DNA of 64,000 nt from a virus (IMGVR_UViG_3300032053_005312:1-64000); one strand, 5' to 3'. Numbered from the stretch's first letter, positions 2,030 to 48,048 are shown. Program-made: numbers and translations. The notes: generated from the letters alone by a model not told the origin.

Positions 2030-2103
2030 GGTTGTGTTCGTCTAGTGGTCTAGGATGCCGTCGTTGAAGACGGAGACATGGGTTCAAATCCCATACACAA
2101 TCT
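2030..2103 (+). tRNA. tRNA-like RNA with 6-nt anticodon loop (undetermined)
   Basis: Intact D and T arms; CCGTC-GTTGAA-GACGG. Confidence 0.7.
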
Positions 2104-2119
2104 CGCAACTGAATTTTAT

Positions 2120-3225: not shown

Positions 3226-3973
3226 ATGGTGTGTCTTTGGCTCGAAACTGTGCGGATTTAGACCAACAGGTAGGTTACACCTGGGGCATTACTTCTCGGT
3301 GATTCAACCGGGACAATCTGGGTGTACTGTACTGGTGGCAAACTATCATGCACCGGAGGTAAAGAATCTGGAAGTATCCGTGAACGCCTTACGGCAATAC
3401 GGTGTCCAGACCATAGTGATTCAGAAGGACGTGTTCGACGCTGAGTTGTTCTTCCGACTATTGACGCTCGCTAAAATGGGCGACTTGAGCCGGATGACAC
3501 AATTCAAGTCAACAGAAGAGGACGATAGGACTGGTCAATTGCTGACTTACCCTGTTCTCATGGCGCATGATGTTGCGGGTTACTCCGAAGTCATTGTGGG
3601 TCTGGACCAGAAGCAGCATTTGGAATATGCCAGAAAGCTGTTGAGAAAATACAACAGCGTATATGGCACGACACATCCGATCCCGATAGCCAATATCGTG
3701 GTGGGACGTGTCAAAGATTTGCGTGACCCGACGAAGAAGATGTCGAAGTCATCACCGCAAGGATGTTTATTCCTTGATGATACGGTTGATGATATTCAAC
3801 AAAAGATTCGGAAGGCGACCGCAGATGAAGAGGGCCTGAATAACTTGAAGTTTTTGTATGGGGAGTTTGTAAGAGAAACGCCTCCAGCAAGCAATCAAGA
3901 ACTGAAAGAGAAGCTGGCCGATAGTTTGGTGAAATGCTTTGCAAGCTGTAGTGGCACAGCATCCGGCTCTTAA
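3226..3973 (+). CDS. trpS: Tryptophanyl-tRNA synthetase (compact); needs +1 frameshift at CTT-TGG-C (3235-3241)
   Basis: GFRPTGRLHLGHY (HIGH) lies upstream of the ORF-track start; YPVLMAHD, GLDQKQH and KMSKS present; the only SD-ATG (GGAG..ATG 3226) is in another frame. Confidence 0.88.
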
Positions 3974-23114: not shown

Positions 23115-23279
23115 ATGGCAAGATCACTACAAAAAGATCAAAGCATCACTCAAAAAAATGATGCCAGCAGCATTGGGAACAAGCGTCGGAAGGCTCGGAA
23201 GGCCAAGACGAATTCCAATAAACGTGACCGTCAATTTCTAAACAAAGACCTAAAGGAACAGATCATGAGCTTGTGCTAA
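23115..23279 (+). CDS. Small basic protein upstream of frr
   Basis: MARSLQK..KRRKARKAK; stop 22 nt before the frr ATG. Confidence 0.5.
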   Translation: MARSLQKDQSITQKNDASSIGNKRRKARKAKTNSNKRDRQFLNKDLKEQIMSLC

Positions 23280-23301
23280 CTTAAACGAAGCCCGGTCCTC
23301 G

Positions 23302-23772
23302 ATGGACAAGGCATTTGAATTTTTCCGTGACCAAATGCGAGGCATCAGGCATGGAGAAATCTCCACTGGCCTCATCGACACAATCCGGGTGGAAGCATAC
23401 GAGCAGCGATTGCCGCTCAAGCAACTGGCCTGGACAGCACCAGATAAAAATAACCGAATCCTAGTGTCACCGTATGACACAGCTTTATTGGGAGCGATTG
23501 ATCGTGCCATTAGAGCAGAAGGGTTCAACTCCTATGTTTTCTCCAAAACCCAGGTGGTAGTCAATTGTCCGGTTCGTAGTGGCGAAGATACAGAACGGGT
23601 GATCCAACAGATCAATAAGCTGGCCGAAGAAGCCAGAGTTGTGATTAGGAATATCCGAAAGAAGATTCGCCAAAAAGCCGAAGAGGATATAGACAAGCCG
23701 CTTCAAAAGTTGACGGATGAAAAGATCAAAGAAATCAATGATCTCGTTGACTATAAGGTGAAGTGCTTATGA
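23302..23772 (+). CDS. frr: Ribosome recycling factor (compact)
   Basis: IRHG..LIDTIRVEAY..PLKQLA..PYD..EEARVVIRNIRK..LQKLTD. Confidence 0.88.
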   Translation: MDKAFEFFRDQMRGIRHGEISTGLIDTIRVEAYEQRLPLKQLAWTAPDKNNRILVSPYDTALLGAIDRAIRAEGFNSYVFSKTQVVVNCPVRSGEDTERVIQQINKLAEEARVVIRNIRKKIRQKAEEDIDKPLQKLTDEKIKEINDLVDYKVKCL

Positions 23773-38041: not shown

Positions 38042-38413
38042 ATGAAGCGTAATCCGATTGCCAACTATTGTAAACAACAAGTAGAGGGCTGGGACAAGCT
38101 GCCTGAGTTCATGAACTTCGCCCCTCTTGGGGAAGAGGACTTTTGTTGCAGTTTTCTTCGTCGTGCTGACGGGATTCAAATGTTGGCGTCAGTGAAAGAC
38201 CTAAACTCCCTCAATACCATCCACATCTCTTTGGCTCCGATTCGAGATTGCCGCAAAGACTGGACTGATGAAGAACATAGTGGACACATATTCGATGTGG
38301 CGTTTGAAGTAGTCGAGTCGTTTTTCCCCGGTCGAAGGTTTGCACGACAGCCCGATGATCTCCGCAGACCCCAAGTGAAGCATTACTTCGCCATTCTGGA
38401 GGCCAATGAATGA
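38042..38413 (+). CDS. Hypothetical protein
   Basis: ATGA overlap with metG. Confidence 0.55.
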   Translation: MKRNPIANYCKQQVEGWDKLPEFMNFAPLGEEDFCCSFLRRADGIQMLASVKDLNSLNTIHISLAPIRDCRKDWTDEEHSGHIFDVAFEVVESFFPGRRFARQPDDLRRPQVKHYFAILEANE

Positions 38414-40056
38414 ACGAGTTCCACATTTCAGAAAAAGACAACAACACCACGTTCGTCACCACGGCGATTGATTATCCGAATGCTATGCCGCATATTGGTA
38501 CAGCTTTCGAGAAGATCGGTGCAGACGTGTACGCCCGGTTCCGTCGATTCCAGGGTCGTGATGTATATTTCACGATGGGCAATGACGAGAACACGGTGAA
38601 AGTGCTTAAAGCGGCGAAGGCTGTGGACAAGCATCCTCAGCCATATGTCGATGAAATGGCCGAAGCGTTTAAGGCTGTGTGGAAAGAACTCAATATTTCC
38701 TTTGACGATTTCATTCAGACCAGCGAAGATCGGCATCTGTTGGGCGTTCAGAGATTTCTGCGTGCTGTTAATGCTGCTGGATATATCGAGAAGCGACCAT
38801 ACAAGGCTCTCTATTGTGAGGGCTGTGAAGAGTTCAAGAGTCCAAATAGCTTGGACCATGCAAAGCGATGCCCGAACCATACTGGCACACCGTTGGTGGA
38901 GCGGGAGGAAGAGAATTACTTCTTTCTTCTATCTGCATTCAAGCAGCGTGTGGCTGATTTGATTTATCCTACTCCATTCCTCACTGCTTTCCTGAGTATC
39001 GAGCCAGAGTCTCGTTACAACGAAGTCACCAAGTTCATCAACACGGAACTGACGGATATTTCCATCAGTCGCCGCAATGAAGGCTGGGGCATTCCAATTC
39101 CTTGGGATGATACACAGGCCACCTATGTCTGGTTCGACGCTTTGTTGAACTATTTGACCGTGATTGGTTTCGGGAACGATTGGGAGAAATTCCAAAAGTA
39201 TTGGCCTGCTGAAGTTCACTTCATCGGCAAGGACATTACTCGGTTCCACTGTGCATTGTTCCCGGCAATGTGCATGGCATACAACGAAGGCTGTGATAAG
39301 TTGGGTGAACCTCAATACAAGTTGAAGGCTTTCCCTCAGCGTGTATTCGCCCACGGATTCGTGAATCAAAAGAAGGGAAGTCAGGTTGTCAAGATTTCCA
39401 AGAGCGGAGATTCAATCCAACCTGGAGAACTGATTGAGCAGTTCGGGTCGGATGCGTATAGATATTACTTCTTGTCGAAGTTCAACTACGATACGGACGG
39501 CGAATATAGCCTGGACCACTTCAGAGAAGTGTATAACGCTGACCTCGCCAACTCTTTGGGCAACCTCGTGAGTCGTACTGTAGGAATGTCGATGCAGTAT
39601 TTCGACGGGAAGATTCCACCGATGGCCGCAGAAGGCCAGACTTGGCTTGATGAGAAGACGGCGTTGGAATACGAGCAATTTATTGTGGATTGTTGTTCGT
39701 ATCGGCACGCTCTTGAATTGACGTGGAAGATCATCTTCAACGCCAACAAGCTGATCGAGGATTCCAAGCCGTGGGAGTTGGTTAAGTTGCCCGGCAACAC
39801 CTGCGGTCAGGTGTTGGGCCAACTTGTGGGCAGTCTGAGAATCATCAGTCTGTTGATCCGACCGTTCACTCCAGCGGTGGCCGAGAAGATTTACACGACG
39901 TTCCAGTGGGCTGAAGGTTGGAATGAACTCGATTGGGAGTTCGTCAAGAAGTTGTCTGAAAACAACTTCCTGGGACTCGAAAACGGTATTGCCATCAATA
40001 GGAATGTTTTAGATAATGCCGGAAAGTTTCCAGTGTTGTTTCCGAGGGCCAAATGA
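38410..40056 (+). CDS. metG: Methionyl-tRNA synthetase
   Basis: TTAIDYPN..HIGT; YVWFDALLNY; IGKDITRFH; KISKS; LANSLGNLVSR. Confidence 0.93.
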   Translation: MNEFHISEKDNNTTFVTTAIDYPNAMPHIGTAFEKIGADVYARFRRFQGRDVYFTMGNDENTVKVLKAAKAVDKHPQPYVDEMAEAFKAVWKELNISFDDFIQTSEDRHLLGVQRFLRAVNAAGYIEKRPYKALYCEGCEEFKSPNSLDHAKRCPNHTGTPLVEREEENYFFLLSAFKQRVADLIYPTPFLTAFLSIEPESRYNEVTKFINTELTDISISRRNEGWGIPIPWDDTQATYVWFDALLNYLTVIGFGNDWEKFQKYWPAEVHFIGKDITRFHCALFPAMCMAYNEGCDKLGEPQYKLKAFPQRVFAHGFVNQKKGSQVVKISKSGDSIQPGELIEQFGSDAYRYYFLSKFNYDTDGEYSLDHFREVYNADLANSLGNLVSRTVGMSMQYFDGKIPPMAAEGQTWLDEKTALEYEQFIVDCCSYRHALELTWKIIFNANKLIEDSKPWELVKLPGNTCGQVLGQLVGSLRIISLLIRPFTPAVAEKIYTTFQWAEGWNELDWEFVKKLSENNFLGLENGIAINRNVLDNAGKFPVLFPRAK

Positions 40057-40241
40057 GCAGATTGATGTTGGTTCTAGGATTAGTCATTGGGTTTTGGGCG
40101 GGCCATTGGTTCGCCCGAACTTCATGGCATCAACGATGGTATGCTCAGTGGTATGAGGGGTTTCTCAACGGCGCTGTTGTTGCAGCAATACTGGTGGGCA
40201 TCTACTTCATTGTCATAAGAAATTGGAAACAATCTTCTTAG
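40053..40241 (+). CDS. Small membrane protein
   Basis: Two TM segments. Confidence 0.5.
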   Translation: MSRLMLVLGLVIGFWAGHWFARTSWHQRWYAQWYEGFLNGAVVAAILVGIYFIVIRNWKQSS

Positions 40242-40316
40242 GGGTTGCACGGTGAGTCCAATCGGTAAGGCGCAAGTCGCTCCGATTAACTGAGGGTTCG
40301 ATTCCCTCCAACTCCA
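40241..40316 (+). ncRNA. Ala-acceptor mini RNA resembling the tmRNA tRNA-like domain
   Basis: GGGGTTG/CAACTCC-A with G3:U70; no D stem; AATCGG/CCGATT helix; GAGGG-TTCGATT-CCCTC. Confidence 0.7.
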
Positions 40317-40318
40317 CT

Positions 40319-40603
40319 ATGAATGAAAAACCAGCCGATGGCGTCCGAGGCTTCTTTCTCTACAGTCCGTTTTCGCATCGACACTTCTTCCGTGTTTACG
40401 GAGAAGTCGATCCGACGACGGGCCATAAGACGTTCACCGATTACAAGGTGTGCGCCGAAGATATAGAAGTCACGATTGAAGCGAATGGGTTGTCCCTGTA
40501 TGAAGGGGACGAAGATAAAAACCGCCTTGATTGGTCCAGCCGTGTCTTAGGAAGAGATGGCAAAGACCACTTGGATGTGCGAACACCAAAAAAGGAACAG
40601 TAA
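40319..40603 (+). CDS. Hypothetical protein
   Basis: ORF. Confidence 0.55.
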   Translation: MNEKPADGVRGFFLYSPFSHRHFFRVYGEVDPTTGHKTFTDYKVCAEDIEVTIEANGLSLYEGDEDKNRLDWSSRVLGRDGKDHLDVRTPKKEQ

Positions 40604-40683
40604 TGGGACGGCCCGTAGAATTTTCTTGATACGATCACTCCTTTATTGTGTCTGAAAAGATATAATGAACCAAGGAGTAAATC

Positions 40684-40896
40684 ATGGATAAAGAATACGC
40701 AAAAGCTATTTCCAACTTCGAGCAAGCGGGAGCGCACCTGGGAAACTTCGCCAACCTATTGTTCACATATCACAAATCGCTATGTGAATCCGGCTTCCAG
40801 AGAGACGAAGCATTGGAATTGGTGAGGGAACTCCAAACGACCTTATTTGCACAGGCTTTCAACTTCGGACCACAGAAGCAAGATGATGACGACTAA
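40684..40896 (+). CDS. Hypothetical protein
   Basis: RBS AAGGAG; SGFQRDEALELV. Confidence 0.6.
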   Translation: MDKEYAKAISNFEQAGAHLGNFANLLFTYHKSLCESGFQRDEALELVRELQTTLFAQAFNFGPQKQDDDD

Positions 40897-41002
40897 AGTA
40901 ATCATTGTTAAGCCAGAAAGACTTGCAGGATCGGTCGCAGAGAAATCTGGCGACCGATTTCGTTATCCATGCAGATGACTTCCTTGCGGAACTGGAGCGA
41001 AC

Positions 41003-41260
41003 ATGAGTGATTGCGAAGTGGCCCAATTCAGCAGAATGGCCATCCCTTTGATGAGGAGGATATATCCTCAGCTTATTGCCAACCAGATATACAGTGTTCA
41101 GCCATTGGCTTGCCCAACTGGTTTAGTGCATTATTTGCGATATAAATATTCTGAGAACAAAGGCAGCACCATCAATACCGATGGTTGGATCATCAAGTCC
41201 AAGAAGAAAAAGATTTGGCGTGACATCAACGATCCGTGGGAGCCTTCTAGCAATGGCTGA
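41003..41260 (+). CDS. Mini-protein matching the T4-type major capsid (gp23) Gol segment
   Basis: PLMRRIYPQLIANQIYSVQPLACPTGLVHYLRY. Confidence 0.7.
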   Translation: MSDCEVAQFSRMAIPLMRRIYPQLIANQIYSVQPLACPTGLVHYLRYKYSENKGSTINTDGWIIKSKKKKIWRDINDPWEPSSNG

Positions 41261-41483
41261 GAATATATGGTATCGTATTCGCAAGCATCTTGGGATGTTG
41301 TCCTATGAGGAAAGTCGCATTGAATCGAGTGAGCAGGTAAAGAACTCGATCAGGGCGCAAATGATACATCCCGATGACGTTAATTGGTCTGATGGAATCA
41401 AGACCGAGAATATTCCCAAAAAAGATAAACTGCGGCCCAGGTCGATTCTCGAAGATTGGGGAGTAACCCAAGATTCGGGCTGA
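41253..41483 (+). CDS. Hypothetical protein
   Basis: ORF; RSILEDW tail. Confidence 0.5.
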   Translation: MAENIWYRIRKHLGMLSYEESRIESSEQVKNSIRAQMIHPDDVNWSDGIKTENIPKKDKLRPRSILEDWGVTQDSG

Positions 41484-41527
41484 ACCTTTTGGCAGCGGCG
41501 ATCTCTAGTAGTGTAAGGAGAAACATC

Positions 41528-41932
41528 ATGGCAGTAAAGCAAGTTATCGTTTGGCGACACGATTTAGGTTGTCGAGTTGGCAAGAAGATGTCGCAAGCGG
41601 GTCATGCTGCTTTGGCCGACTTGTCGAACACGATTCGTGACAATGTTGATGCCGAAGGTAATGTATCGTTCAAGCTGTCGCCTGCACAGTTTGAGTGGTA
41701 TTTGACGAACTTCCGTAAGATCGTTCTCCGTGTTGACAGTGAGGCCGACCTGTTGCTTCTGTACCATCTGGCGCAGGAAGTGGGGTTGCCGACTGAACTC
41801 ATCATCGACAGTGGTTTGACGGAATGGGATCAGCCCACAAAGACTTGCATCGCTATCGGGCCAGCAGAAGATGCCGAGATTGACGAGATCACTGGTGAGC
41901 GTGGCCCTTTGGGAAGATTGAAGTTGATGTGA
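41528..41932 (+). CDS. pth2: Peptidyl-tRNA hydrolase Pth2
   Basis: KQVIV.R.DL..GK..SQAGHA; KIVL; IDSGLTE..T.TCIAIGP. Confidence 0.9.
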   Translation: MAVKQVIVWRHDLGCRVGKKMSQAGHAALADLSNTIRDNVDAEGNVSFKLSPAQFEWYLTNFRKIVLRVDSEADLLLLYHLAQEVGLPTELIIDSGLTEWDQPTKTCIAIGPAEDAEIDEITGERGPLGRLKLM

Positions 41933-41974
41933 CCTTTACTGATTGGTGGTTTTTGTGGTGTATAATACAATACC

Positions 41975-42484
41975 ATGATTGCAACCATCATAATTGCCGC
42001 AGCAACTTTTTTCACCCTGATGGCCTTGACGTATTGCTGTCTACGTTTATGGTCGGCACGGAATGCTTTACAACATAAACTTTCCGTGGTAGAATCAACC
42101 GTAGCAGAGCAGCATCTTGCCCTTAGTGCATACGAGGATCGGCTGAGTAAAGTCGAGGCTGTTCAAGAAGAAGAATTGACGCAAGATCAGGCTGAATACA
42201 GAGATCAGCTACAGGCACAATACGCTGCCCTGTTCAAGCAGATCGAAGACAAAATGAAAAACGATCTGAAGACGGCGAGAACCGAAACTTCAGATTTGGT
42301 GAAGAAGAGTCGTGCGGAATTCGACAAAAAGTTGAAGGACGAGTTCAAGAAAGCCTGTGAACAGATCAAGTTTAGCGAAATCGAATACAAACGAACCATC
42401 ACCAAAAAGCGGAAAGAATTCAGTCGCAAAAATGCAAAGAACGCCAAACCTCAGAGGATATGGCGATACATAGATGAAGAGTAG
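41975..42484 (+). CDS. Membrane-anchored coiled-coil protein
   Basis: N-terminal TM segment followed by heptads. Confidence 0.55.
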   Translation: MIATIIIAAATFFTLMALTYCCLRLWSARNALQHKLSVVESTVAEQHLALSAYEDRLSKVEAVQEEELTQDQAEYRDQLQAQYAALFKQIEDKMKNDLKTARTETSDLVKKSRAEFDKKLKDEFKKACEQIKFSEIEYKRTITKKRKEFSRKNAKNAKPQRIWRYIDEE

Positions 42485-42551
42485 CCCTTTGAACGCAGAG
42501 GAAAAAATGGGTCCGTAGATACACGAAAGGAACCATCAACCGGAGGTCAGT

Positions 42552-43160
42552 ATGTCATTAGCACAGAGAAAAGTCTTAGTTTTGAACAAGTCGTGGACTG
42601 CCATTGGCGTCGTCACGTTGGAAAAGGCACTAAAGAAAGTCGCCGGAACCTACAAAGACGGTACGCCGAAGGCACGCATCATCGACGCACTTCATGACTT
42701 TGCTATGCTGACCTGGGATGATTGGGCAAAACTCCGTCCAGGGGAAGACGAGCCAGCAATGCGTTCTGTGAACGCAGTGTTTCGTATTCCTGAAGTTATC
42801 CAGTACACTCGATACGACAAGCTGCCTACACAGAAGGTCCACTACAACCGTAGGACCATCTACCGGCGTGACGGTAACGTCTGCCAGTATTGTGGAAAGC
42901 AGAAGCCGGGTAGCGAGTTGTCATTGGACCACGTTATCCCACGTTGCCAGGGTGGTTTGACCACCTGGGAAAACATTGTCGTGGCTTGTACCGACTGCAA
43001 CGCAAAGAAGGCTGGCCGGACTCCGAAAGAAGCCAATATGAGGTTGCTCTCTGTGCCTAAGAAGCCGAAGCACAACTTCTTCCCTGGTGATGTTCGGGTG
43101 AAGTCTTGGGAGCAATTCCTTGGCGAAGCGTACTGGCTCACAGAGCTAGAACATGACTAG
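42552..43160 (+). CDS. HNH endonuclease (McrA/HNH_5-like)
   Basis: VLVLN..RRD..CQYCG..LDHVIP..GG..WENIVVAC..CN.KK. Confidence 0.88.
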   Translation: MSLAQRKVLVLNKSWTAIGVVTLEKALKKVAGTYKDGTPKARIIDALHDFAMLTWDDWAKLRPGEDEPAMRSVNAVFRIPEVIQYTRYDKLPTQKVHYNRRTIYRRDGNVCQYCGKQKPGSELSLDHVIPRCQGGLTTWENIVVACTDCNAKKAGRTPKEANMRLLSVPKKPKHNFFPGDVRVKSWEQFLGEAYWLTELEHD

Positions 43161-43182
43161 CTGTCTACGGATTGCTAAACGA

Positions 43183-43222
43183 TAGCCTCTGGCGTGTGGC
43201 GACATGCGCCAGAGGCTTTTTT
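43183..43222 (+). terminator. Rho-independent terminator
   Basis: AGCCTCTGGCG../..CGCCAGAGGCT + T run. Confidence 0.7.
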
Positions 43223-43239
43223 ATTCTTCATGGTGCGAC

Positions 43240-43641
43240 ATGGAATTATCACCCTCTGTTCAAAAACTTATAGCTATCCGCACCAAGCTGGAAGAGGAAC
43301 GGCATCAATTTGCCATCAAGCACGGCTTCGCCTTCAAGCGGGCGCAAAACTTCAAAGATTGCGTCGTGATCCGTTGGAAAACATCAACTAAGAAGCACAA
43401 GATCAACCATCCTCGCATTGAGGAATATGTCAAAATAAGTCATGAACTTTCCGACAAGCACAATTTGTGGGTTGAAGATTACCCATTCCTCGAAACCGGA
43501 CTCCTATTGTTGAAGATTGGCATTTACGTCTTCTATTCATGGGACTACCAATCTTGGGCCATCCCAAATGAAAACAAGGAAATTCAGGACTACGTTCTGA
43601 GCAATTTACCCAAATGGGCCAAAGTGAGTGTGAAGAAATGA
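43240..43641 (+). CDS. Hypothetical protein
   Basis: ORF overlapping the argS start. Confidence 0.5.
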   Translation: MELSPSVQKLIAIRTKLEEERHQFAIKHGFAFKRAQNFKDCVVIRWKTSTKKHKINHPRIEEYVKISHELSDKHNLWVEDYPFLETGLLLLKIGIYVFYSWDYQSWAIPNENKEIQDYVLSNLPKWAKVSVKK

Positions 43642-44930
43642 TTCGCCCTATCCCGCTATCTCATGGCGTTGGGTTTTTCTCAATGCAGCAATTGCCTCAA
43701 TTTGCAGGCAAGTACCGTGAGGAAAATGTCGGTCGCTACTGGAACTACTACGTCACTCCAGAGTGCCAGGAATGGCCCGAAGCTGTGACGTATAAGGGTC
43801 CGTATGTAATCGACGGGTTCTCCCCAAACCTCAACAAGAGTCTGCACGTCGGGCATCTACGTCAATTGGCTTTGGCCAAGTCTTTGGAGAGCATTATGAA
43901 CTATGCTCAACAAAAGCCTAATGCCAAGTTCGTGTCCCTATTGGGAGCGTCACAAGGCGTCTTTCAATACGCCACCGAGCAACTGAATGGATGGTTCGAT
44001 TTTCTGAACTTCCATCCAGAGTTGCACTACGACGTATTGATGCCACGAGATCAGGAGATCGTTCCTCGTTACAAAACCAAGGTGCCGGTCAAAGACTCTA
44101 TTTCGACCGACATTAACGGCAACCCTTTCGAGCATGAGGAAGAATGTGAAGTATGGGATGGCCCCAATGGGCCTGTAATCGTCGTTCGTTGGGATGGGCG
44201 TCCTTTGTATGCCTTCCAAGACATTGCCTTCTCGAAGGTTGTGGGGCCGACGCATTACATCACTGGCACTGAGCAACAGGAGCATTTCGCAAACCTGGGG
44301 CTGGGCGACAAGCACTTGCCTATGGGCCTTGTATTGGGCGCTGACGGCAAGAAGATGAAGTCTCGTACTGGCGATAGTGTCACGGCGAAAGAAGTGCTGG
44401 ATCAGATTGTGTCACAGCTTGATCCGACACCTGAACCGAACAAGCTGGCGTGGAATGTATTGGCATGGAACTTCCTTCATGTCGCTCGTTCCAAGAGTGT
44501 GAAATATACACCGCAAGAATGGACGAAGCCGGATGCTCCGGGCATGTATATTTCCTACACTTATGCTCGTTTGCAATCGGCCATGAGTCAGGTGCCATAT
44601 CGTGATCGCACGGCTCGGCATGTTGTTCGCATTACCGCAGCGGGTGTCAACGCAGTGTTTGATCCAGAGTACGATTTGACGCAAGGTGATGCCGAACTCA
44701 TTGGCTTTGCAAATCAACATGCTTATTTTTTGGCACGAAGCATTGAGTCGTTTGACCCAGCGATTTTGGCAAACTTCACTTACGATCTTGCAGCGAAATT
44801 AGGACAAGCGTATCATCTGGACAAAATCGTTGATGGTCGTTGGGGATTCAAGTATTCTGTATCGCAGGCGTTGACACACCTTCGTTTGTGCATGTGTCAA
44901 CTTGGCATGTTTCCTTTGGAGAAGATTTGA
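43638..44930 (+). CDS. argS: Arginyl-tRNA synthetase (lacking most of the N-terminal domain)
   Basis: SPNLNKSLHVGHLR; EQQEHF; KMKSRTG; YISYTYARL. Confidence 0.88.
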   Translation: MIRPIPLSHGVGFFSMQQLPQFAGKYREENVGRYWNYYVTPECQEWPEAVTYKGPYVIDGFSPNLNKSLHVGHLRQLALAKSLESIMNYAQQKPNAKFVSLLGASQGVFQYATEQLNGWFDFLNFHPELHYDVLMPRDQEIVPRYKTKVPVKDSISTDINGNPFEHEEECEVWDGPNGPVIVVRWDGRPLYAFQDIAFSKVVGPTHYITGTEQQEHFANLGLGDKHLPMGLVLGADGKKMKSRTGDSVTAKEVLDQIVSQLDPTPEPNKLAWNVLAWNFLHVARSKSVKYTPQEWTKPDAPGMYISYTYARLQSAMSQVPYRDRTARHVVRITAAGVNAVFDPEYDLTQGDAELIGFANQHAYFLARSIESFDPAILANFTYDLAAKLGQAYHLDKIVDGRWGFKYSVSQALTHLRLCMCQLGMFPLEKI

Positions 44931-45262
44931 TGGATGCTCAACAACGAGAGGCCGATCAGCGAGTCATCGCTTCTGAAAGGAAGATGACGGATGCCGAGTT
45001 TCTTGAAACCATGTCAAGAACGGACTCGTTGATTGACCATGAGCCTGATACCACCTGTGGCATGTGCCATCACCAATTCGTGATGGCACAGGTCGCTCGT
45101 GATATGATCGTTGCAGGCGAGACGGAAGACGTAATCAAGAAGTGGTCTGAGGAAGCCGAACGTCGTTGGCGTTCATCGAAATTTGTCCAGCTTTGGGACG
45201 AAGCTGTTGCTGCCGATAAAGACCCTAATGCGGTCTTCGAGGAACGTGGTTGGGAGCCTTAA
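44930..45262 (+). CDS. Hypothetical protein
   Basis: TGATG overlap. Confidence 0.55.
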   Translation: MDAQQREADQRVIASERKMTDAEFLETMSRTDSLIDHEPDTTCGMCHHQFVMAQVARDMIVAGETEDVIKKWSEEAERRWRSSKFVQLWDEAVAADKDPNAVFEERGWEP

Positions 45263-45263
45263 A

Positions 45264-45815
45264 ATGTCAGAACATGGAATCGTCAAAGATGGTTGTTGGG
45301 TGCCTTTGCCCCCAATCATGACTGTTGAATCCTTGTTGGCTTATGGATTTAGAGAATGGCCTGTCGGCCAACATGACAAGCATGATCGGCATTGGCAATT
45401 TTGCAAGCGTGATGAAAAGGGCAAGAAGCTCTATGTGCAGGTGCGACTGTGGGCGTTCAGTAAATACAGCAATACTGAACGAACAGTTGAAGACTCATTC
45501 GATGCCGATGTTCAGTTTGACATGAATGGTCCCAAGACATTCAACGTCAATATGAGCGTCAATAATATGACGCCAGCACAGGTCGTTGAATGGTTCGAGA
45601 AAATGCACGACACAATGGGATGTACTCATTACGAGTTGTATTCCGACGACCGATACAACGAAGAAGGCGAACAGACTTCTTTCGACTGTGATAAATGTGG
45701 AAGATATTTGCCACCAGAAGAAGCTGTCGCACCGTTTCTTTGTCCTGGGTGCAAGTACGAAACAGAGAGTGGTTTTAAGCAAGTTGCCAGAAAGGTCAAA
45801 GTAAAGCGTAGATAG
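45264..45815 (+). CDS. Hypothetical protein with Zn ribbon
   Basis: CDKC..CPGC. Confidence 0.55.
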   Translation: MSEHGIVKDGCWVPLPPIMTVESLLAYGFREWPVGQHDKHDRHWQFCKRDEKGKKLYVQVRLWAFSKYSNTERTVEDSFDADVQFDMNGPKTFNVNMSVNNMTPAQVVEWFEKMHDTMGCTHYELYSDDRYNEEGEQTSFDCDKCGRYLPPEEAVAPFLCPGCKYETESGFKQVARKVKVKRR

Positions 45816-45816
45816 C

Positions 45817-45845
45817 TTTACAATTTGGGCCTCTCGTGGTAGAAT
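45817..45845 (+). promoter_or_regulatory. Promoter TTTACA-N17-TAGAAT upstream of the release factor gene
   Basis: Repeated promoter family. Confidence 0.65.
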
Positions 45846-45881
45846 GTAGAGGTCCAGCAAAATTTTTTGGAGTAGAGAGAG

Positions 45882-46686
45882 ATGAGAAATGTCAAAATCA
45901 TGAATCAAGGACACGGCGGCAAATCTTCGGCAACATCCTGTCTTTAGCGACTCTAAAGTTCTAATCTTAGAACTGCATGGCGGGGAAGGTGGCGAAGACT
46001 CGAAGTTGTTCGTCGCCGATTTACTTGAAACCTATCTCAAATACGCTTCCAACTGTGGATTAGGCTATGAAGTCCTGACAAAAGAACACGGTCACGCAAT
46101 TGCCAAGATCACAGGCAAAGGCGTCTGGAAAGCGTTTCAAAACGAACCCGGCAAACACGTTGTACAGCGTGTCCCACCCACAGAGCGTGGTGGGCGACGG
46201 CAAACCTCTATTGTGACGGTTTCTGTCATGCCGCTGCCTCCTGAGAACACTCAGGAGCCGCTTCGTGAAAAAGACCTGGACATTATCTTTCAGACGGGCA
46301 AGCAGAAGGCAGGCGGTCAAAACGTCAATAAGGTGGCGTCAGCCGTCCGCATGAAGCATAAGCCGACTGGAATGATGGTGTTCATCAACGGTAGAGATCA
46401 GAAGCAAAATCTCGATGAGGCGTTGCGCATTTTGACCTTCAAGGTCAATGAGCAAAAGCGGCTCAAGATCGAGGGCGAATACGATCAATCCCGTAAGACG
46501 CAGATGATGAGCGGCGGTGATCGAATTGGTGGTAGAGGCGATAAAATTCGCACCTACAACTTCATTCAGTCTCGTGTCGTGGATCACAGGCTTGGTCGCA
46601 AAACGGCAAACATCAAAGAGGTCATGAAGGGTAATTTCTCCATCCTGTTCAATGATGGAGAAATGTCTGGCAGTGACGACGAATAA
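45882..46686 (+). CDS. prfA: Peptide chain release factor 1-like (lacks domain 1); needs +1 frameshift at CTT-TAG-C (45942-45948)
   Basis: ILELHGGEGGEDSKLF lies upstream of the ORF-track TTG start; E.GKH.VQRVPPT (PxT); AGGQNVNK; IRTYNF..RV.DHR. Confidence 0.88.
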
Positions 46687-46705
46687 CTCGATTTTGCTTA
46701 ATCGA

Positions 46706-46743
46706 GGGCCAGCATCTTCTTTTGGGGGTGCTGGCCTTTTTTG
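46706..46743 (+). terminator. Rho-independent terminator
   Basis: AGGGCCAGCATC../..GGTGCTGGCCTTTTTT. Confidence 0.7.
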
Positions 46744-46788
46744 TTCGCCCGTACTCCTTTGTTATATCCAGCTTCAAAGGAGCATATT

Positions 46789-47076
46789 ATGTGGCTTGAA
46801 TTAGGCAAAGAACGACCGGGTGGTGTCCCACAGAACAATCCACGAATTTGGGTCAATACAGACCATATCGTGCGTGTAGAATTCATTCAGGAAGGTGCGG
46901 TATTGACCGCTACAGTCATCTCTACGAAGCCGGGCGGTTCAGATCGCACGATATTCAAAGGTGATGACGCAGAACGATTAAGACTGGCTTTGAATATGGA
47001 GCGTTCGTGGCAACCACTGCTCGACTATGAAAAGCCAGCAGAGCCAGAAAAGGCTGTCAAAAAACCAAAGAAATAA
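46789..47076 (+). CDS. Hypothetical protein
   Basis: RBS AAGGAG. Confidence 0.6.
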   Translation: MWLELGKERPGGVPQNNPRIWVNTDHIVRVEFIQEGAVLTATVISTKPGGSDRTIFKGDDAERLRLALNMERSWQPLLDYEKPAEPEKAVKKPKK

Positions 47077-47121
47077 GCGAACCCGGTTTGCTTATTTCCT
47101 GTCAAGTAAACGGAGGGAAAA

Positions 47122-48048
47122 ATGGCAAACGTAATTAAAGAACTGTACGACAAGAGATTGACAAATCTCGGCGGTCATCGCTGGATTCCAGACAACATGC
47201 ACTACATCACAATGATGGGTAGTGTGGCCTATGGTGTTTCAAACGATACGTCCGACACGGACATTTATTCCTTTTGCATTCCACCAAAGGAAGAATTGTT
47301 TCCGCATCTTCGTGGCGAAATCGTAGGCTTTGGCGATGCCGTACACGCCAATAATAGATTCACCAATTACCAAGAACACCACATCAAAGATGTCGGTGCC
47401 GAGAAAGAATATGACCTCAACATTTACAATATTGTTGACTTCTTTCAGTTGGTGATGGAAAACAACCCTAACATGATTGACTCTTTGTTTACGCCTCAAT
47501 GGTGCGTATTGCATAGCACCAGAGTCGGCCAGATGGTGCGAGAGCAGAGGAAGATATTCCTTCATTTAGGAAGCTGGAATACTTTCAAAGGCTACGCCTA
47601 TTCACAGCTAAAGAAGTGTGGGTCAAAGAAGCGAACCGGGAAGCGAAAGCAAGTGGTAGACGAAATGGGCTTCGACCCTAAATTCGCTTACCATATTGTG
47701 AGAAATCTGAATGAAATCGAACAGATTCTCACAGAGGGCGATCTGGACCTACAGCGAAATAGAGAACAATTGAAGGCTATTCGCCGTGGGGAATGGTCGC
47801 TCGAACAGATAGAAGAATATTTCGAGCGGAAAGAACTTGAGCTAGAAACTCTGTATAATGAGAATAAAGCCGGTTTACCTTGGGGGCCTAAACACGATGG
47901 TTTGCAAGAGAAAGTTAAACAACTTCTCTTTCAGTGCCTCGAAGAACACTATGGATCGCTTGACAAATGTATTGTCAATCCAGATGCCGCAGTGATGGCT
48001 CTCCGGGAGGTTGGCGACGTTCTCGCAAAATACAGAAACCTTCTATGA
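47122..48048 (+). CDS. Pol-beta-superfamily nucleotidyltransferase (YcgL/RlaP-like)
   Basis: GSVAYG..SDTD; NNPNMIDSLF; FKGYAYSQ; K.AYH..R; L.AIRRG. Confidence 0.82.
   Translation: MANVIKELYDKRLTNLGGHRWIPDNMHYITMMGSVAYGVSNDTSDTDIYSFCIPPKEELFPHLRGEIVGFGDAVHANNRFTNYQEHHIKDVGAEKEYDLNIYNIVDFFQLVMENNPNMIDSLFTPQWCVLHSTRVGQMVREQRKIFLHLGSWNTFKGYAYSQLKKCGSKKRTGKRKQVVDEMGFDPKFAYHIVRNLNEIEQILTEGDLDLQRNREQLKAIRRGEWSLEQIEEYFERKELELETLYNENKAGLPWGPKHDGLQEKVKQLLFQCLEEHYGSLDKCIVNPDAAVMALREVGDVLAKYRNLL

What the first reader, a model, noticed from the sequence alone, without database searches (positions are those of the whole stretch)
45882..46010. RF1 with its own autoregulatory frameshift: CUU-UAG-C mirrors the RF2 CUU-UGA-C switch
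Seen: conserved release-factor sequence (ILELHGGEGGEDSKLF) extends upstream of the TTG called by the ORF track. The leader from ATG 45882/45900 ends TGT CTT TAG C (45939-45948), and a +1 slip enters the RF frame (AGC GAC TCT AAA..). The protein has the PxT motif (VPPT) of RF1, which reads UAG/UAA, and GGQ. Established: this feedback is classic for RF2 with UGA. Inference: the stop codon matches this factor's specificity, so RF1 would be produced when UAG termination is weak. The context TGT-CTT-T is identical to the trpS site, suggesting one reused regulatory module. No clear internal SD is visible here.
Basis: partly seen in the sequence, partly recalled or inferred. Interest (0 to 1): 0.88.

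Follow-up and report, generated by a model that had tools for sequence, protein, structure and literature searches.

The report
Frameshift-gated short phage release factor
A huge phage carries a shortened RF1-type translation-termination factor that can be made only if the ribosome slips one base forward at CUU-UAG-C, the device known from bacterial RF2; it is conserved in most related phage and bacterial genes, and I found no published description for an RF1-type gene.

Summary
A 21-codon leader (ATG 45882) ends TGT CTT TAG C (45939-45948). The RF1-like frame is +1 and has no ATG, GTG or TTG before TTG 46006. RF1 homology starts at AGC 45946, the first codon after the slip. Contigs from three other sediment runs span the site with no differences.

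Comparison shows it is programmed. Of 84 dereplicated relatives, 72 have CTT plus a stop in the -1 frame at this junction. About half carry a prfB-like SD element three bases upstream. Twenty-one have two tandem cassettes. Six instead have an early in-frame UGA. Five start normally.

The stop here (UAG) fits the factor's PxT/Q/T decoding motifs. Across the family the junction stop is TGA 44, TAG 27, TAA 1. It changed at least 13 times on the tree. The nearest relative has TAA. No residue tracks stop type. Matched autoregulation is therefore not the family rule.

The window's trpS has the same TGT-CTT-T module with a UGG A-site codon.

Closest known cases are bacterial prfB and Mimivirus eRF1. 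A 2016 review and a 2025 survey report no recoding for RF1. This scan reported the same family earlier on other DNA. I rate it a new variant of a known kind.

The parts
45817..45845 (+). sigma-70-like promoter TTTACA-17-TAGAAT with TG before the -10 hexamer; it would make ATG 45882 the first ATG of the transcript
   Evidence: 10 of 12 matches; one such site is also expected by chance. The block 45783-45872 is nearly identical in relative L002, while the leader downstream has diverged.
45869..45872 (+). Shine-Dalgarno GGAG, 9 nt before ATG 45882
   Evidence: read from the sequence; conserved in L002
45882..45947 (+). leader ORF in the 0 frame, 21 codons (MRNVKIMNQGHGGKSSATSCL) plus TAG
   Evidence: Relatives L002 and L004 have 22-codon leaders ending ..SSAMVCL and ..QQPATVCL; a 3-nt indel against L002 preserves the frame.
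45939..45948 (+). +1 frameshift site TGT CTT TAG C: E-site UGU, P-site CUU slipping to UUU, A-site UAG, then C
   Evidence: CTT plus a stop occurs at the same junction in 72 of 84 relatives, TGT precedes it in 35 of 72 and C follows in 44 of 72. Identical in contigs of three other runs that span it.
45946..46686 (+). RF1-type release-factor body in the +1 frame: 246 codons covering domains 2, 3 and 4, with GGEGGEDSK, QRVPPT and GGQ, ending at TAA. The predicted product is 21 + 246 = 267 aa.
   Evidence: Homology to RF1 positions ~100-107 onward starts at residue 15-16 of P0001 (codons 45946/45949), the first one or two codons after the slip.
45889..45903 (+). RF-frame ATG TCA AAA TCA TGA (the rival readthrough route); judged fortuitous
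   Evidence: no RF-frame ATG before the RF-frame stop in L002, L051, L052, L053 or L004
46006..46008 (+). TTG called as the start by the ORF track. A start here would remove the strand and the GxGGxDSK helix tip, which are invariant in the family.
   Evidence: invariant G27 G29 G30 D32 S33 K34 lie upstream of this codon
46704..46745 (+). intrinsic-terminator-like hairpin (16 pairs) followed by a T run, closing a one-gene unit

Best explanation
The gene encodes a class-I release factor of the RF1 type that lacks domain 1. It is made only through a programmed +1 ribosomal frameshift. Ribosomes start at ATG 45882, behind GGAG, on what looks like a one-gene transcript, and read 21 leader codons. 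They arrive with CUU (Leu) in the P site and UAG in the A site. Either a release factor ends the 21-residue peptide, or peptidyl-tRNA-Leu re-pairs from CUU to UUU and AGC (45946) is read next. The second path gives a 267-aa protein: leader plus RF domains 2-4. Slipping competes with termination at UAG, so the yield should fall as UAG-termination capacity rises (host RF1 plus, by inference from its PxT/Q/T motifs, the phage factor) and rise when that capacity is short. Shown: the frame architecture, its conservation, the prfB-like signals in relatives and the fidelity of the sequence. Inferred: that slipping occurs, its efficiency (probably low here, since this lineage lacks the SD-like stimulator), the factor's codon specificity, and the feedback.
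For: The RF frame has no start codon, and RF1 homology starts at the first codon after the slip. The region upstream of TTG 46006 holds family-invariant residues. CTT plus a stop in the -1 frame occurs at this junction in 72 of 84 dereplicated relatives, and 65 of those 72 have no RF-frame ATG. The stop is followed by C in 44 of 72. An SD-like 4-mer lies just before CTT in 36-37 of 72 junction cassettes and in 20 of 21 distal cassettes (consensus cGGaGG-N3-CTT-TAG-C), which is the prfB design (prfB elements as described in PMC12421855). In the 94%-identical relative L002 the leader has diverged in sequence, with a 3-nt in-frame indel, but TGT CTT TA. C is kept. Leaders of L002 and L004 are alike at the peptide level in the 0 frame. 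The sequence is identical in contigs of three other runs that span the site. Promoter-like and terminator-like sites bracket the gene. The decoding motifs QRVPPT...QTS and GGQ are RF1-like. Crude ORF calls end in TAG in 29 of 121 cases, so there is demand for UAG termination. The same TGT-CTT-T module precedes a product-matched A-site codon (UGG) in trpS. The same heptamer CUU UAG C was shown experimentally to frameshift in Mimivirus R726 expressed in E. coli (PMC3521657).
Against: There is no SD-like stimulator in this lineage (window, L002, L004), so efficiency may be only a few percent. No RNA or protein data exist: no RNA run was listed. The stop at the junction is not conserved (TGA 44, TAG 27, TAA 1; at least 13 changes; nearest relative TAA), so RF1-specific feedback is not the selected feature across the family. 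The specificity of a PPT factor without domain 1 is untested. Some relatives have PKN, PPS, PSN, PDN or PHL in place of PxT.
Confidence: 0.7

Rival explanations
1. The frameshift is real, but its role is not RF1-matched autoregulation. Any single-factor stop (UAG or UGA) serves as a slow A-site codon. It either fixes a low expression level for a factor that is harmful in excess, or reports the cell's general termination capacity, including host RF2.
For: TGA, which an RF1-type factor should not read, is the commonest junction stop (44 of 72). TAA, which both factors read, is nearly absent there (1 of 72). Stop type switches between close relatives (TAG, TAA, TGA at 84-99% identity) and changed at least 13 times on the tree. 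No RF residue tracks stop type. Tandem cassettes mix TAG with TGA in 4 loci.
Against: In this window the stop is UAG and the factor has RF1 motifs, so self-feedback follows mechanically if the factor is active. Distal cassettes are mostly TAG or TAA (18 of 21). In Obscuribacterales-type MAGs the site is TAG in every case. In bacterial prfB the stop identity is strictly kept (PMC12421855), which shows that specificity can matter.
Confidence: 0.2
2. The factor is made without frameshifting: from TTG 46006 or a non-canonical start in the RF frame, with the leader acting only as an upstream ORF (possibly by termination-reinitiation).
For: The ORF track calls TTG 46006. This lineage has no SD-like stimulator at the site.
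Against: A TTG 46006 start would remove the family-invariant GxGGxDSK helix tip and the preceding strand. There is no ATG, GTG or TTG between 45904 and 46006. What is conserved at the junction is CTT plus a stop in the -1 frame, not a start codon. Gene callers pick inconsistent internal starts across homologues.
Confidence: 0.05
3. The factor is made from the RF-frame ATG 45889 by readthrough of UGA-A at 45901.
For: ATG TCA AAA TCA TGA A lies in the RF frame. Six relatives (L009, L024, L087, L098, L100, L122) have just such a short in-frame leader with an early UGA (UGA-A in five, UGA-C in L009) and no CTT site.
Against: The feature is absent from L002, L051, L052, L053 and L004, while the CTT-stop site is present in all of them. 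ATG 45889 lies inside the leader ORF, 7 nt after ATG 45882. Standard code fits the contig, so UGA is a stop here.
Confidence: 0.03
4. The interruption is an assembly error or the gene is a decaying pseudogene.
For: A single-base frame break is the commonest kind of sequencing artefact.
Against: The sequence is identical in contigs of three other runs that span the site. The same break with the same hexamer occurs in 72 of 84 diverged relatives. The RF body is intact and conserved, with invariant catalytic and decoding residues.
Confidence: 0.02

Closest known systems
Bacterial prfB (RF2) autoregulatory +1 programmed frameshift: AGGGGG-N3-CUU UGA C
   Same: A short 0-frame leader ends in a stop and the main ORF is +1. 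The slippery CUU-U, the C after the stop and a leader of about 20-25 codons are shared. In about half of the relatives, and in 20 of 21 distal cassettes, the SD-like element lies at a 3-nt spacing (PMC12421855).
   Different: The protein is RF1-type, not RF2-type (PxT not SPF). The site lies at the domain 1/2 boundary of a factor that lacks domain 1, not at codon 26 inside domain 1. The stop is UAG here and varies in the family, whereas prfB has 98.6% TGA and never TAG. The window lacks the SD-like stimulator. A third of relatives carry two cassettes in tandem.
Mimivirus R726 / Megavirus mg280 release-factor genes (Jeudy et al. 2012, PMC3521657)
   Same: A virus-encoded class-I release factor gated by recoding. 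The heptamers are identical: CUU UAG C (Mimivirus) and CUU UAA C (Megavirus). Two recoding events occur in one gene, and readthrough of UGA occurs in some members.
   Different: Those are eRF1/aRF1-type proteins of viruses of amoebae. This one is a bacterial RF1-type protein of phages (and some bacterial MAGs), and the two are unrelated apart from GGQ. The origin is therefore independent.
Canonical bacterial RF1 (prfA)
   Same: Domains 2, 3 and 4, GGQ, the PxT tripeptide, and the Gln and Thr that read the third base. About 35-38% identity to solved RF1 chains over about 230 residues.
   Different: No domain 1 (about 100 N-terminal residues missing). It scores below the NCBIfam equivalog cut-off (209 against 400). 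No recoding is known in prfA: a survey of more than 12,000 genomes found none (PMC12421855), and the 2016 review calls an RF1/UAG counterpart 'unknown' (PMC5009743).
PrfH (domain-1-less RF homologue paired with RtcB2)
   Same: A short release-factor homologue without domain 1 that keeps GGQ.
   Different: Weak match only (44 bits against a cut-off of 166.65).

Membership tests
Class-I release factor RF1 (prfA; NF001859/TIGR00019) | GGQ peptidyl-tRNA hydrolysis motif within the RF-1 domain (PF00472) | tested here: met
   AGGQNVNK; PF00472 E=5e-20
Class-I release factor RF1 (prfA; NF001859/TIGR00019) | RF1-type decoding elements: PxT tripeptide, Gln before it, Thr of the (H/Q)TS motif, and the GxGG helix tip | tested here: met
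   QRVPPT...RQTS and GGEGGED. The protein aligns to RF1 structures 1zbt and 4v4r. It scores 209 bits with the RF1 model against 130 with the RF2 model.
Class-I release factor RF1 (prfA; NF001859/TIGR00019) | Full four-domain architecture, including N-terminal domain 1 | tested here: not met
   The match covers only RF1 positions ~100-345 and PCRF profile positions 97-194 of 194. At most 35 residues precede domain 2.
Class-I release factor RF1 (prfA; NF001859/TIGR00019) | Score above the curated equivalog cut-off | tested here: not met
   209.1 bits against 400 and 196.1 against 423. It is an RF1-derived paralogous family (phrog_19918), not prfA itself.
Class-I release factor RF1 (prfA; NF001859/TIGR00019) | Peptide release at UAA and UAG but not UGA | not testable with these tools
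   Needs a release assay with the purified protein.
prfB-type autoregulatory +1 frameshift cassette | Short leader ORF ending in a stop, with the main ORF in the +1 frame and no start of its own | tested here: met
prfB-type autoregulatory +1 frameshift cassette | Slippery CUU-U followed by a weak stop with C at +4 | tested here: met
   CTT TAG C at 45942-45948. CTT occurs in 72 of 84 relatives and C at +4 in 44 of 72.
prfB-type autoregulatory +1 frameshift cassette | Internal SD-like element (AGGGGG) 3 nt upstream of CUU | tested here: not met
   The window has ggcaacatcc TGT CTT. The element is present in about half of related junction cassettes and in 20 of 21 distal cassettes.
prfB-type autoregulatory +1 frameshift cassette | The stop at the site is read by the gene's own product | tested here: inconclusive
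   UAG with an RF1-type factor fits in the window. The family has TGA 44, TAG 27, TAA 1 with no matching change in the factor.
prfB-type autoregulatory +1 frameshift cassette | Conservation of the cassette among homologues | tested here: met
prfB-type autoregulatory +1 frameshift cassette | Frameshift efficiency falls as release-factor level rises | not testable with these tools
   Needs a reporter assay with RF1 titrated.
PrfH (TIGR03072) | Score above the curated cut-off | tested here: not met
   44.2 bits against 166.65. Separately, the PxT/Q/T decoding motifs are present here; PrfH is said to lack them, which I did not check.

The most novel reading that the evidence does not exclude
Huge phages, and some Melainabacteria and Planctomycetes, use a portable 'A-site vacancy sensor': a CUU slip placed before a codon whose decoding depends on the gene's own kind of product. 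Examples are UAG, UGA or UAA before a domain-1-less RF1-type factor, and UGG before TrpRS. In the release-factor family the sensor is used singly, in tandem or as an in-frame leaky UGA. Tandem cassettes with different stops (TAG then TGA) would act as AND gates. The factor would then be made only when both RF1-type and RF2-type termination are failing, for instance during host shut-off or a translation-targeting defence.
Probability: 0.3. Interest if true: 0.9.

Novelty: new variant of a known kind. Interest (0 to 1): 0.75.

Why it matters
Programmed +1 frameshifting at a 'shifty stop' is the textbook autoregulation of RF2. The 2016 review of recoding says that an RF1/UAG counterpart, and an early in-frame stop in a bacterial-type RF gene, are both unknown (PMC5009743). 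A 2025 survey of more than 12,000 genomes found none in prfA, and never found TAG in prfB (PMC12421855). This gene family shows all of these: UAG, UGA and UAA cassettes, tandem double cassettes, and in-frame UGA variants. They occur in hundreds of phage and metagenome sequences. That gives a natural series for asking three questions: what the stop identity, the SD-like stimulator and the cassette number each contribute; how viruses sense and top up the host's termination capacity; and what a release factor without domain 1 does. On the practical side, gene callers truncate these genes at arbitrary internal starts, so annotations are wrong throughout the family.

Tried and rejected
Stop-codon reassignment: standard code gives 86% ORF cover with all three stops in use, the 78.6-kb contig has no suppressor tRNA, and neighbours of the in-frame-UGA relatives are intact under code 11. 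Rejected.

Nearby DNA relatives in the phage collection: none by blastn.

Residue-to-stop-type association: best Fisher p = 3e-5, far from perfect and consistent with shared ancestry alone. No evidence for altered specificity.

Downstream RNA structure as a substitute stimulator: 45940-46030 folds with z = -1.2, not distinctive.

Conservation of the ATG 45889/TGA readthrough route: not conserved.

Expression data: no RNA holder was listed for this stretch, so nothing can be said about expression.

The library lacks most subscription journals, so absence is not proof.

Other CTT-T-stop sites in the window: none fits.

Full report
WHAT IS THERE. The window is a tRNA-rich stretch of a huge-phage-like genome. 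It holds 35 tRNA genes and uses the standard code: crude ORFs cover 86% and all three stops are in use. The whole assembly is one 78.6-kb contig.

At 45882 an ATG lies 9 nt behind GGAG (45869-72). It opens a 21-codon frame, MRNVKIMNQGHGGKSSATSCL, that ends TGT CTT TAG C at 45939-45948. One base forward, a frame runs from AGC 45946 for 246 codons to TAA 46684-86. That frame is open only from 45904, after TGA 45901, and holds no ATG, GTG or TTG until TTG 46006, the codon the ORF track uses.

The product matches RF1:
- Pfam PCRF profile positions 97-194 of 194, plus the RF-1 domain.
- NCBIfam RF1 209 bits against RF2 130 bits and PrfH 44 bits, all below the equivalog cut-offs.
- Solved RF1 chains match from their residue ~103-120 onward.

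Homology starts at SDSK, the first codon after the proposed slip, so domain 1 is absent. The decoding and catalytic motifs are RF1-like: GGEGGEDSK, QRVPPT..RQTS and AGGQ. A promoter-like site (TTTACA-17-TAGAAT, 45817-45845) and a terminator-like hairpin (46704-46745) bracket the gene. These are only consensus matches, but they would make ATG 45882 the first ATG of a one-gene transcript.

IS THE SEQUENCE RIGHT? Contigs assembled from four other sediment runs were laid on 45700-46200. X3, X4 and X6 span the site, and X5 reaches 45952, too close to its end to count as spanning. None shows a substitution or an indel. No RNA run was listed, so expression is untested.

IS IT PROGRAMMED? The nearest relative, L002 (IMG/VR contig of 340 kb), is 94% identical in protein. 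Its promoter and SD block is almost unchanged. Its leader has diverged strongly, with an in-frame 3-nt indel, and reads MSKNNQWHSQERKGDSSAMVCL. It keeps TGT CTT TA. C, now with TAA.

I collected 48 viral-contig loci, 80 metagenome loci (438 relatives exist) and 21 loci from genome assemblies. Of 131 loci, 116 had a recognisable body, and 84 remained after dereplication at 90% identity. Among these 84:
- 72 have CTT followed by a stop in the -1 frame. The stop lies mostly 37, 34 or 43 nt before the GxGG motif.
- 65 of the 72 have no RF-frame ATG upstream.
- C follows the stop in 44 of 72.
- TGT precedes CTT in 35 of 72.
- An SD-like 4-mer lies just upstream in 36-37 of 72.

Many sites are exact copies of the prfB design, for example AGGGGG TGT CTT TGA (L013) and AGGAG TGT CTT TAG (L014). 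My script also recovered a true prfB (SPF motif, CTT TGA C) as an internal control (L151). Chance would give such a site in about 2% of loci.

Gene callers start these genes at many different internal codons. Where they extend upstream, the 'protein' shows a conserved VF(D/E/S/N), which is simply GTC TTT GAx/AGC/AAC read in the RF frame. A start at TTG 46006 would delete residues that are invariant in the family (G27 G29 G30 D32 S33 K34).

VARIANTS IN THE FAMILY. Of 23 loci with no ATG in the proximal leader frame, 21 have a second cassette 31-70 nt upstream. It has a short ATG leader of 8-28 codons (mostly 8-13, of the MSKKNRRYL type) behind a real SD, and the consensus cGGaGG-N3-CTT-TAG-C. 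So two successive +1 slips are needed.
- Distal stops are TAG 13, TAA 5 and TGA 3.
- First/second combinations are TAG/TAG 9, TAG/TGA 4, TAA/TAG 3, TGA/TGA 3 and TAA/TGA 2.

Six loci instead have a short in-frame leader with an early in-frame UGA and no CTT site; five of them read UGA-A. Their neighbouring genes are intact under the standard code. Five loci have an ordinary in-frame ATG with SD.

The family also occurs in MAGs labelled Obscuribacterales/Melainabacteria, on contigs of up to 1.1 Mb and always with CTT TAG C, and in Pirellulaceae MAGs with TAG or TGA.

WHAT THE STOP MEANS. At the junction cassette the stop is TGA in 44, TAG in 27 and TAA in 1. Close relatives of the window differ:
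- window: TAG
- L002 (99% over the body): TAA
- L051 (91%): TAG
- L052 (84%): TGA
- L053 (71%): TAG
- L004 (68%): TGA

On a maximum-likelihood tree of 82 bodies the stop type changed at least 13 times. Almost all members keep Q..PxT..TS, and PPT occurs with both TGA (28) and TAG (22). No alignment column tracks stop type beyond what shared ancestry explains (best p = 3e-5). Some members have PKN, PPS, PSN, PDN or PHL in place of PxT.

In bacterial prfB the stop is TGA in 98.6%, TAA in the rest and never TAG, which is read as proof of self-regulation (PMC12421855). Here the rule differs. Stops read by a single factor are favoured and TAA is avoided at the junction, but the stop need not be the one an RF1-type factor reads.

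Slipping competes with termination at UAG, and UAG is read by host RF1 and presumably by this factor. What evolution conserves, however, is the shifty stop, not its match to the product.

HOW IT MOST LIKELY WORKS. Initiation is at ATG 45882. After 21 codons the ribosome holds UGU in the E site, CUU in the P site and UAG in the A site. A release factor then ends the peptide, or tRNA-Leu re-pairs to UUU and AGC is read. The second path gives a 267-aa factor made of the leader plus domains 2-4.

Without the SD-like stimulator the yield is probably low. That statement rests on what is established for prfB (PMC12421855), not on a test here. Crude ORF calls in the contig end in TAG in 29 of 121 cases, so a phage supply of UAG and UAA termination is plausible.

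RIVALS.
- Readthrough from the RF-frame ATG 45889 across TGA 45901 is not conserved in L002, L051, L052, L053 or L004.
- Internal or non-canonical starts do not explain the conserved CTT-stop, and they lose invariant residues.
- Error or pseudogene is excluded.
- A run of three T is too short for transcriptional slippage (established knowledge).

THE trpS PARALLEL. At 3226 the sequence reads ATG GTG TGT CTT TGG CTC.., giving MVCLWLETVRI*. The TrpRS frame (class I W/Y domain, PF00579) is +1, reads ..GSKLCGFRPTGRLHLGH, and has no start of its own. The site is kept in L131, with CGT for TGT. In at least 12 of 120 homologues whose called start reaches upstream, the TrpRS-frame reading is the conserved W-C-(V/I)-F-G; the variant WWVFG also occurs. 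That is the string ATG GTG TGT CTT TGG read one base off. Many other homologues start normally at M-x-CGFRPTG. So the same E- and P-site module is used with a Trp codon in the A site before a Trp-tRNA synthetase.

COMPARISON WITH WHAT IS KNOWN. The device works like the prfB cassette. It is not prfB, because the protein is RF1-type, the site lies at the domain 1/2 boundary of a factor without domain 1, the stop varies, and cassettes can be doubled. The closest viral precedent is Mimivirus R726 and Megavirus mg280. These are eRF1-type factors that need UGA-C readthrough plus a frameshift at CUU UAG C or CUU UAA C, shown by expression in E. coli (PMC3521657). The heptamers are the same but the protein family is unrelated. 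[quoted passage not shown] The 2025 survey found no programmed frameshift in prfA. Papers on huge phages mention phage RF1 and RF2 but not recoding.

Earlier follow-ups of this same scan reported the same family on other genomes, both single and tandem. My results were obtained independently and agree with them.

VERDICT. Feedback through UAG termination in this phage is plausible (about 0.7 for the whole statement). 'Stop matched to the factor' is not the family rule. I rate it a new variant of a known kind and of high interest to people who study recoding and phage takeover of translation.

Noticed in passing
window 3226-3241 (trpS leader), TrpRS frame 3239-3973; L131: TrpRS can be reached only by a +1 slip at ATG GTG TGT CTT|TGG, with the Trp codon UGG in the A site. 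The leader frame gives MVCLWLETVRI*. The string is conserved in many phage TrpRS homologues, where it reads W-C-(V/I)-F-G in the TrpRS frame; other homologues start normally at M-x-CGFRPTG. It looks like a 'hungry codon' switch matched to the product.
   Followed up: partly
window 23265-23304 (RRF, PF01765): ATG AGC TTG TGC TAA, then the RRF frame one base forward (NLNEARSSMDKAF..). The P-site codon UGC is not a classic slippery codon, and ATG 23302 in the RRF frame is an ordinary alternative start. Unresolved.
   Followed up: no
L001, L005, L007, L012, L013, L017, L043, L056, L060, L064, L069-L071, L075, L079, L080, L084, L092, L103, L109, L129: Relatives of the release-factor gene carry two tandem prfB-like +1 cassettes 31-70 nt apart. 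An example is L075: CGG AGG TAT CTT TAG C ... CAC TGT CTT TAG C. Four loci combine TAG with TGA.
   Followed up: yes
L009, L024, L087, L098, L100, L122: Relatives with a short in-frame leader and an early in-frame UGA (UGA-A in five, UGA-C in L009) instead of a frameshift site. Their neighbouring genes are intact under the standard code. This is the readthrough design that the 2016 review says was never found in bacterial-type RF genes.
   Followed up: partly
L137, L138, L140, L142, L144-L146 (Obscuribacterales/Melainabacteria-labelled MAGs, contigs up to 1.1 Mb); L136, L139, L141, L143, L147-L149 (Pirellulaceae MAGs): The same short RF1-type gene with leader plus CTT TAG C (or CTT TGA C) occurs in bacterial MAG contigs, so the family may not be confined to phages. 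I did not check whether these are chromosomal genes, prophages or mis-binned phage contigs.
   Followed up: partly
L005, L008, L018, L019, L026-L033, L037-L042: The 'anticodon' tripeptide varies in relatives (PKN, PPS, PPN, PSN, PDN, PHL instead of PxT), which hints at altered or relaxed stop recognition in some members.
   Followed up: no
window 38410-48048: The release factor sits in a block of translation and RNA-repair genes: MetRS (38410-40056), PTH2 peptidyl-tRNA hydrolase (41456-41932), an HNH endonuclease (42552-43160), an ArgRS-like class I synthetase fragment (43614-44930), and directly downstream an RlaP-type 'RNA repair pathway' nucleotidyltransferase (47122-48048).
   Followed up: no
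window 2030-2104: ARAGORN reports a tRNA-like gene with an undefined anticodon loop (tRNA-???, 'tg') inside the tRNA array.
   Followed up: no
whole contig (78.6 kb): Crude ORF calls end in TAG in 29 of 121 cases, which looks high to me for bacteria (my recollection, not checked). TAG-C is not avoided as a real terminator (11 cases).
   Followed up: no
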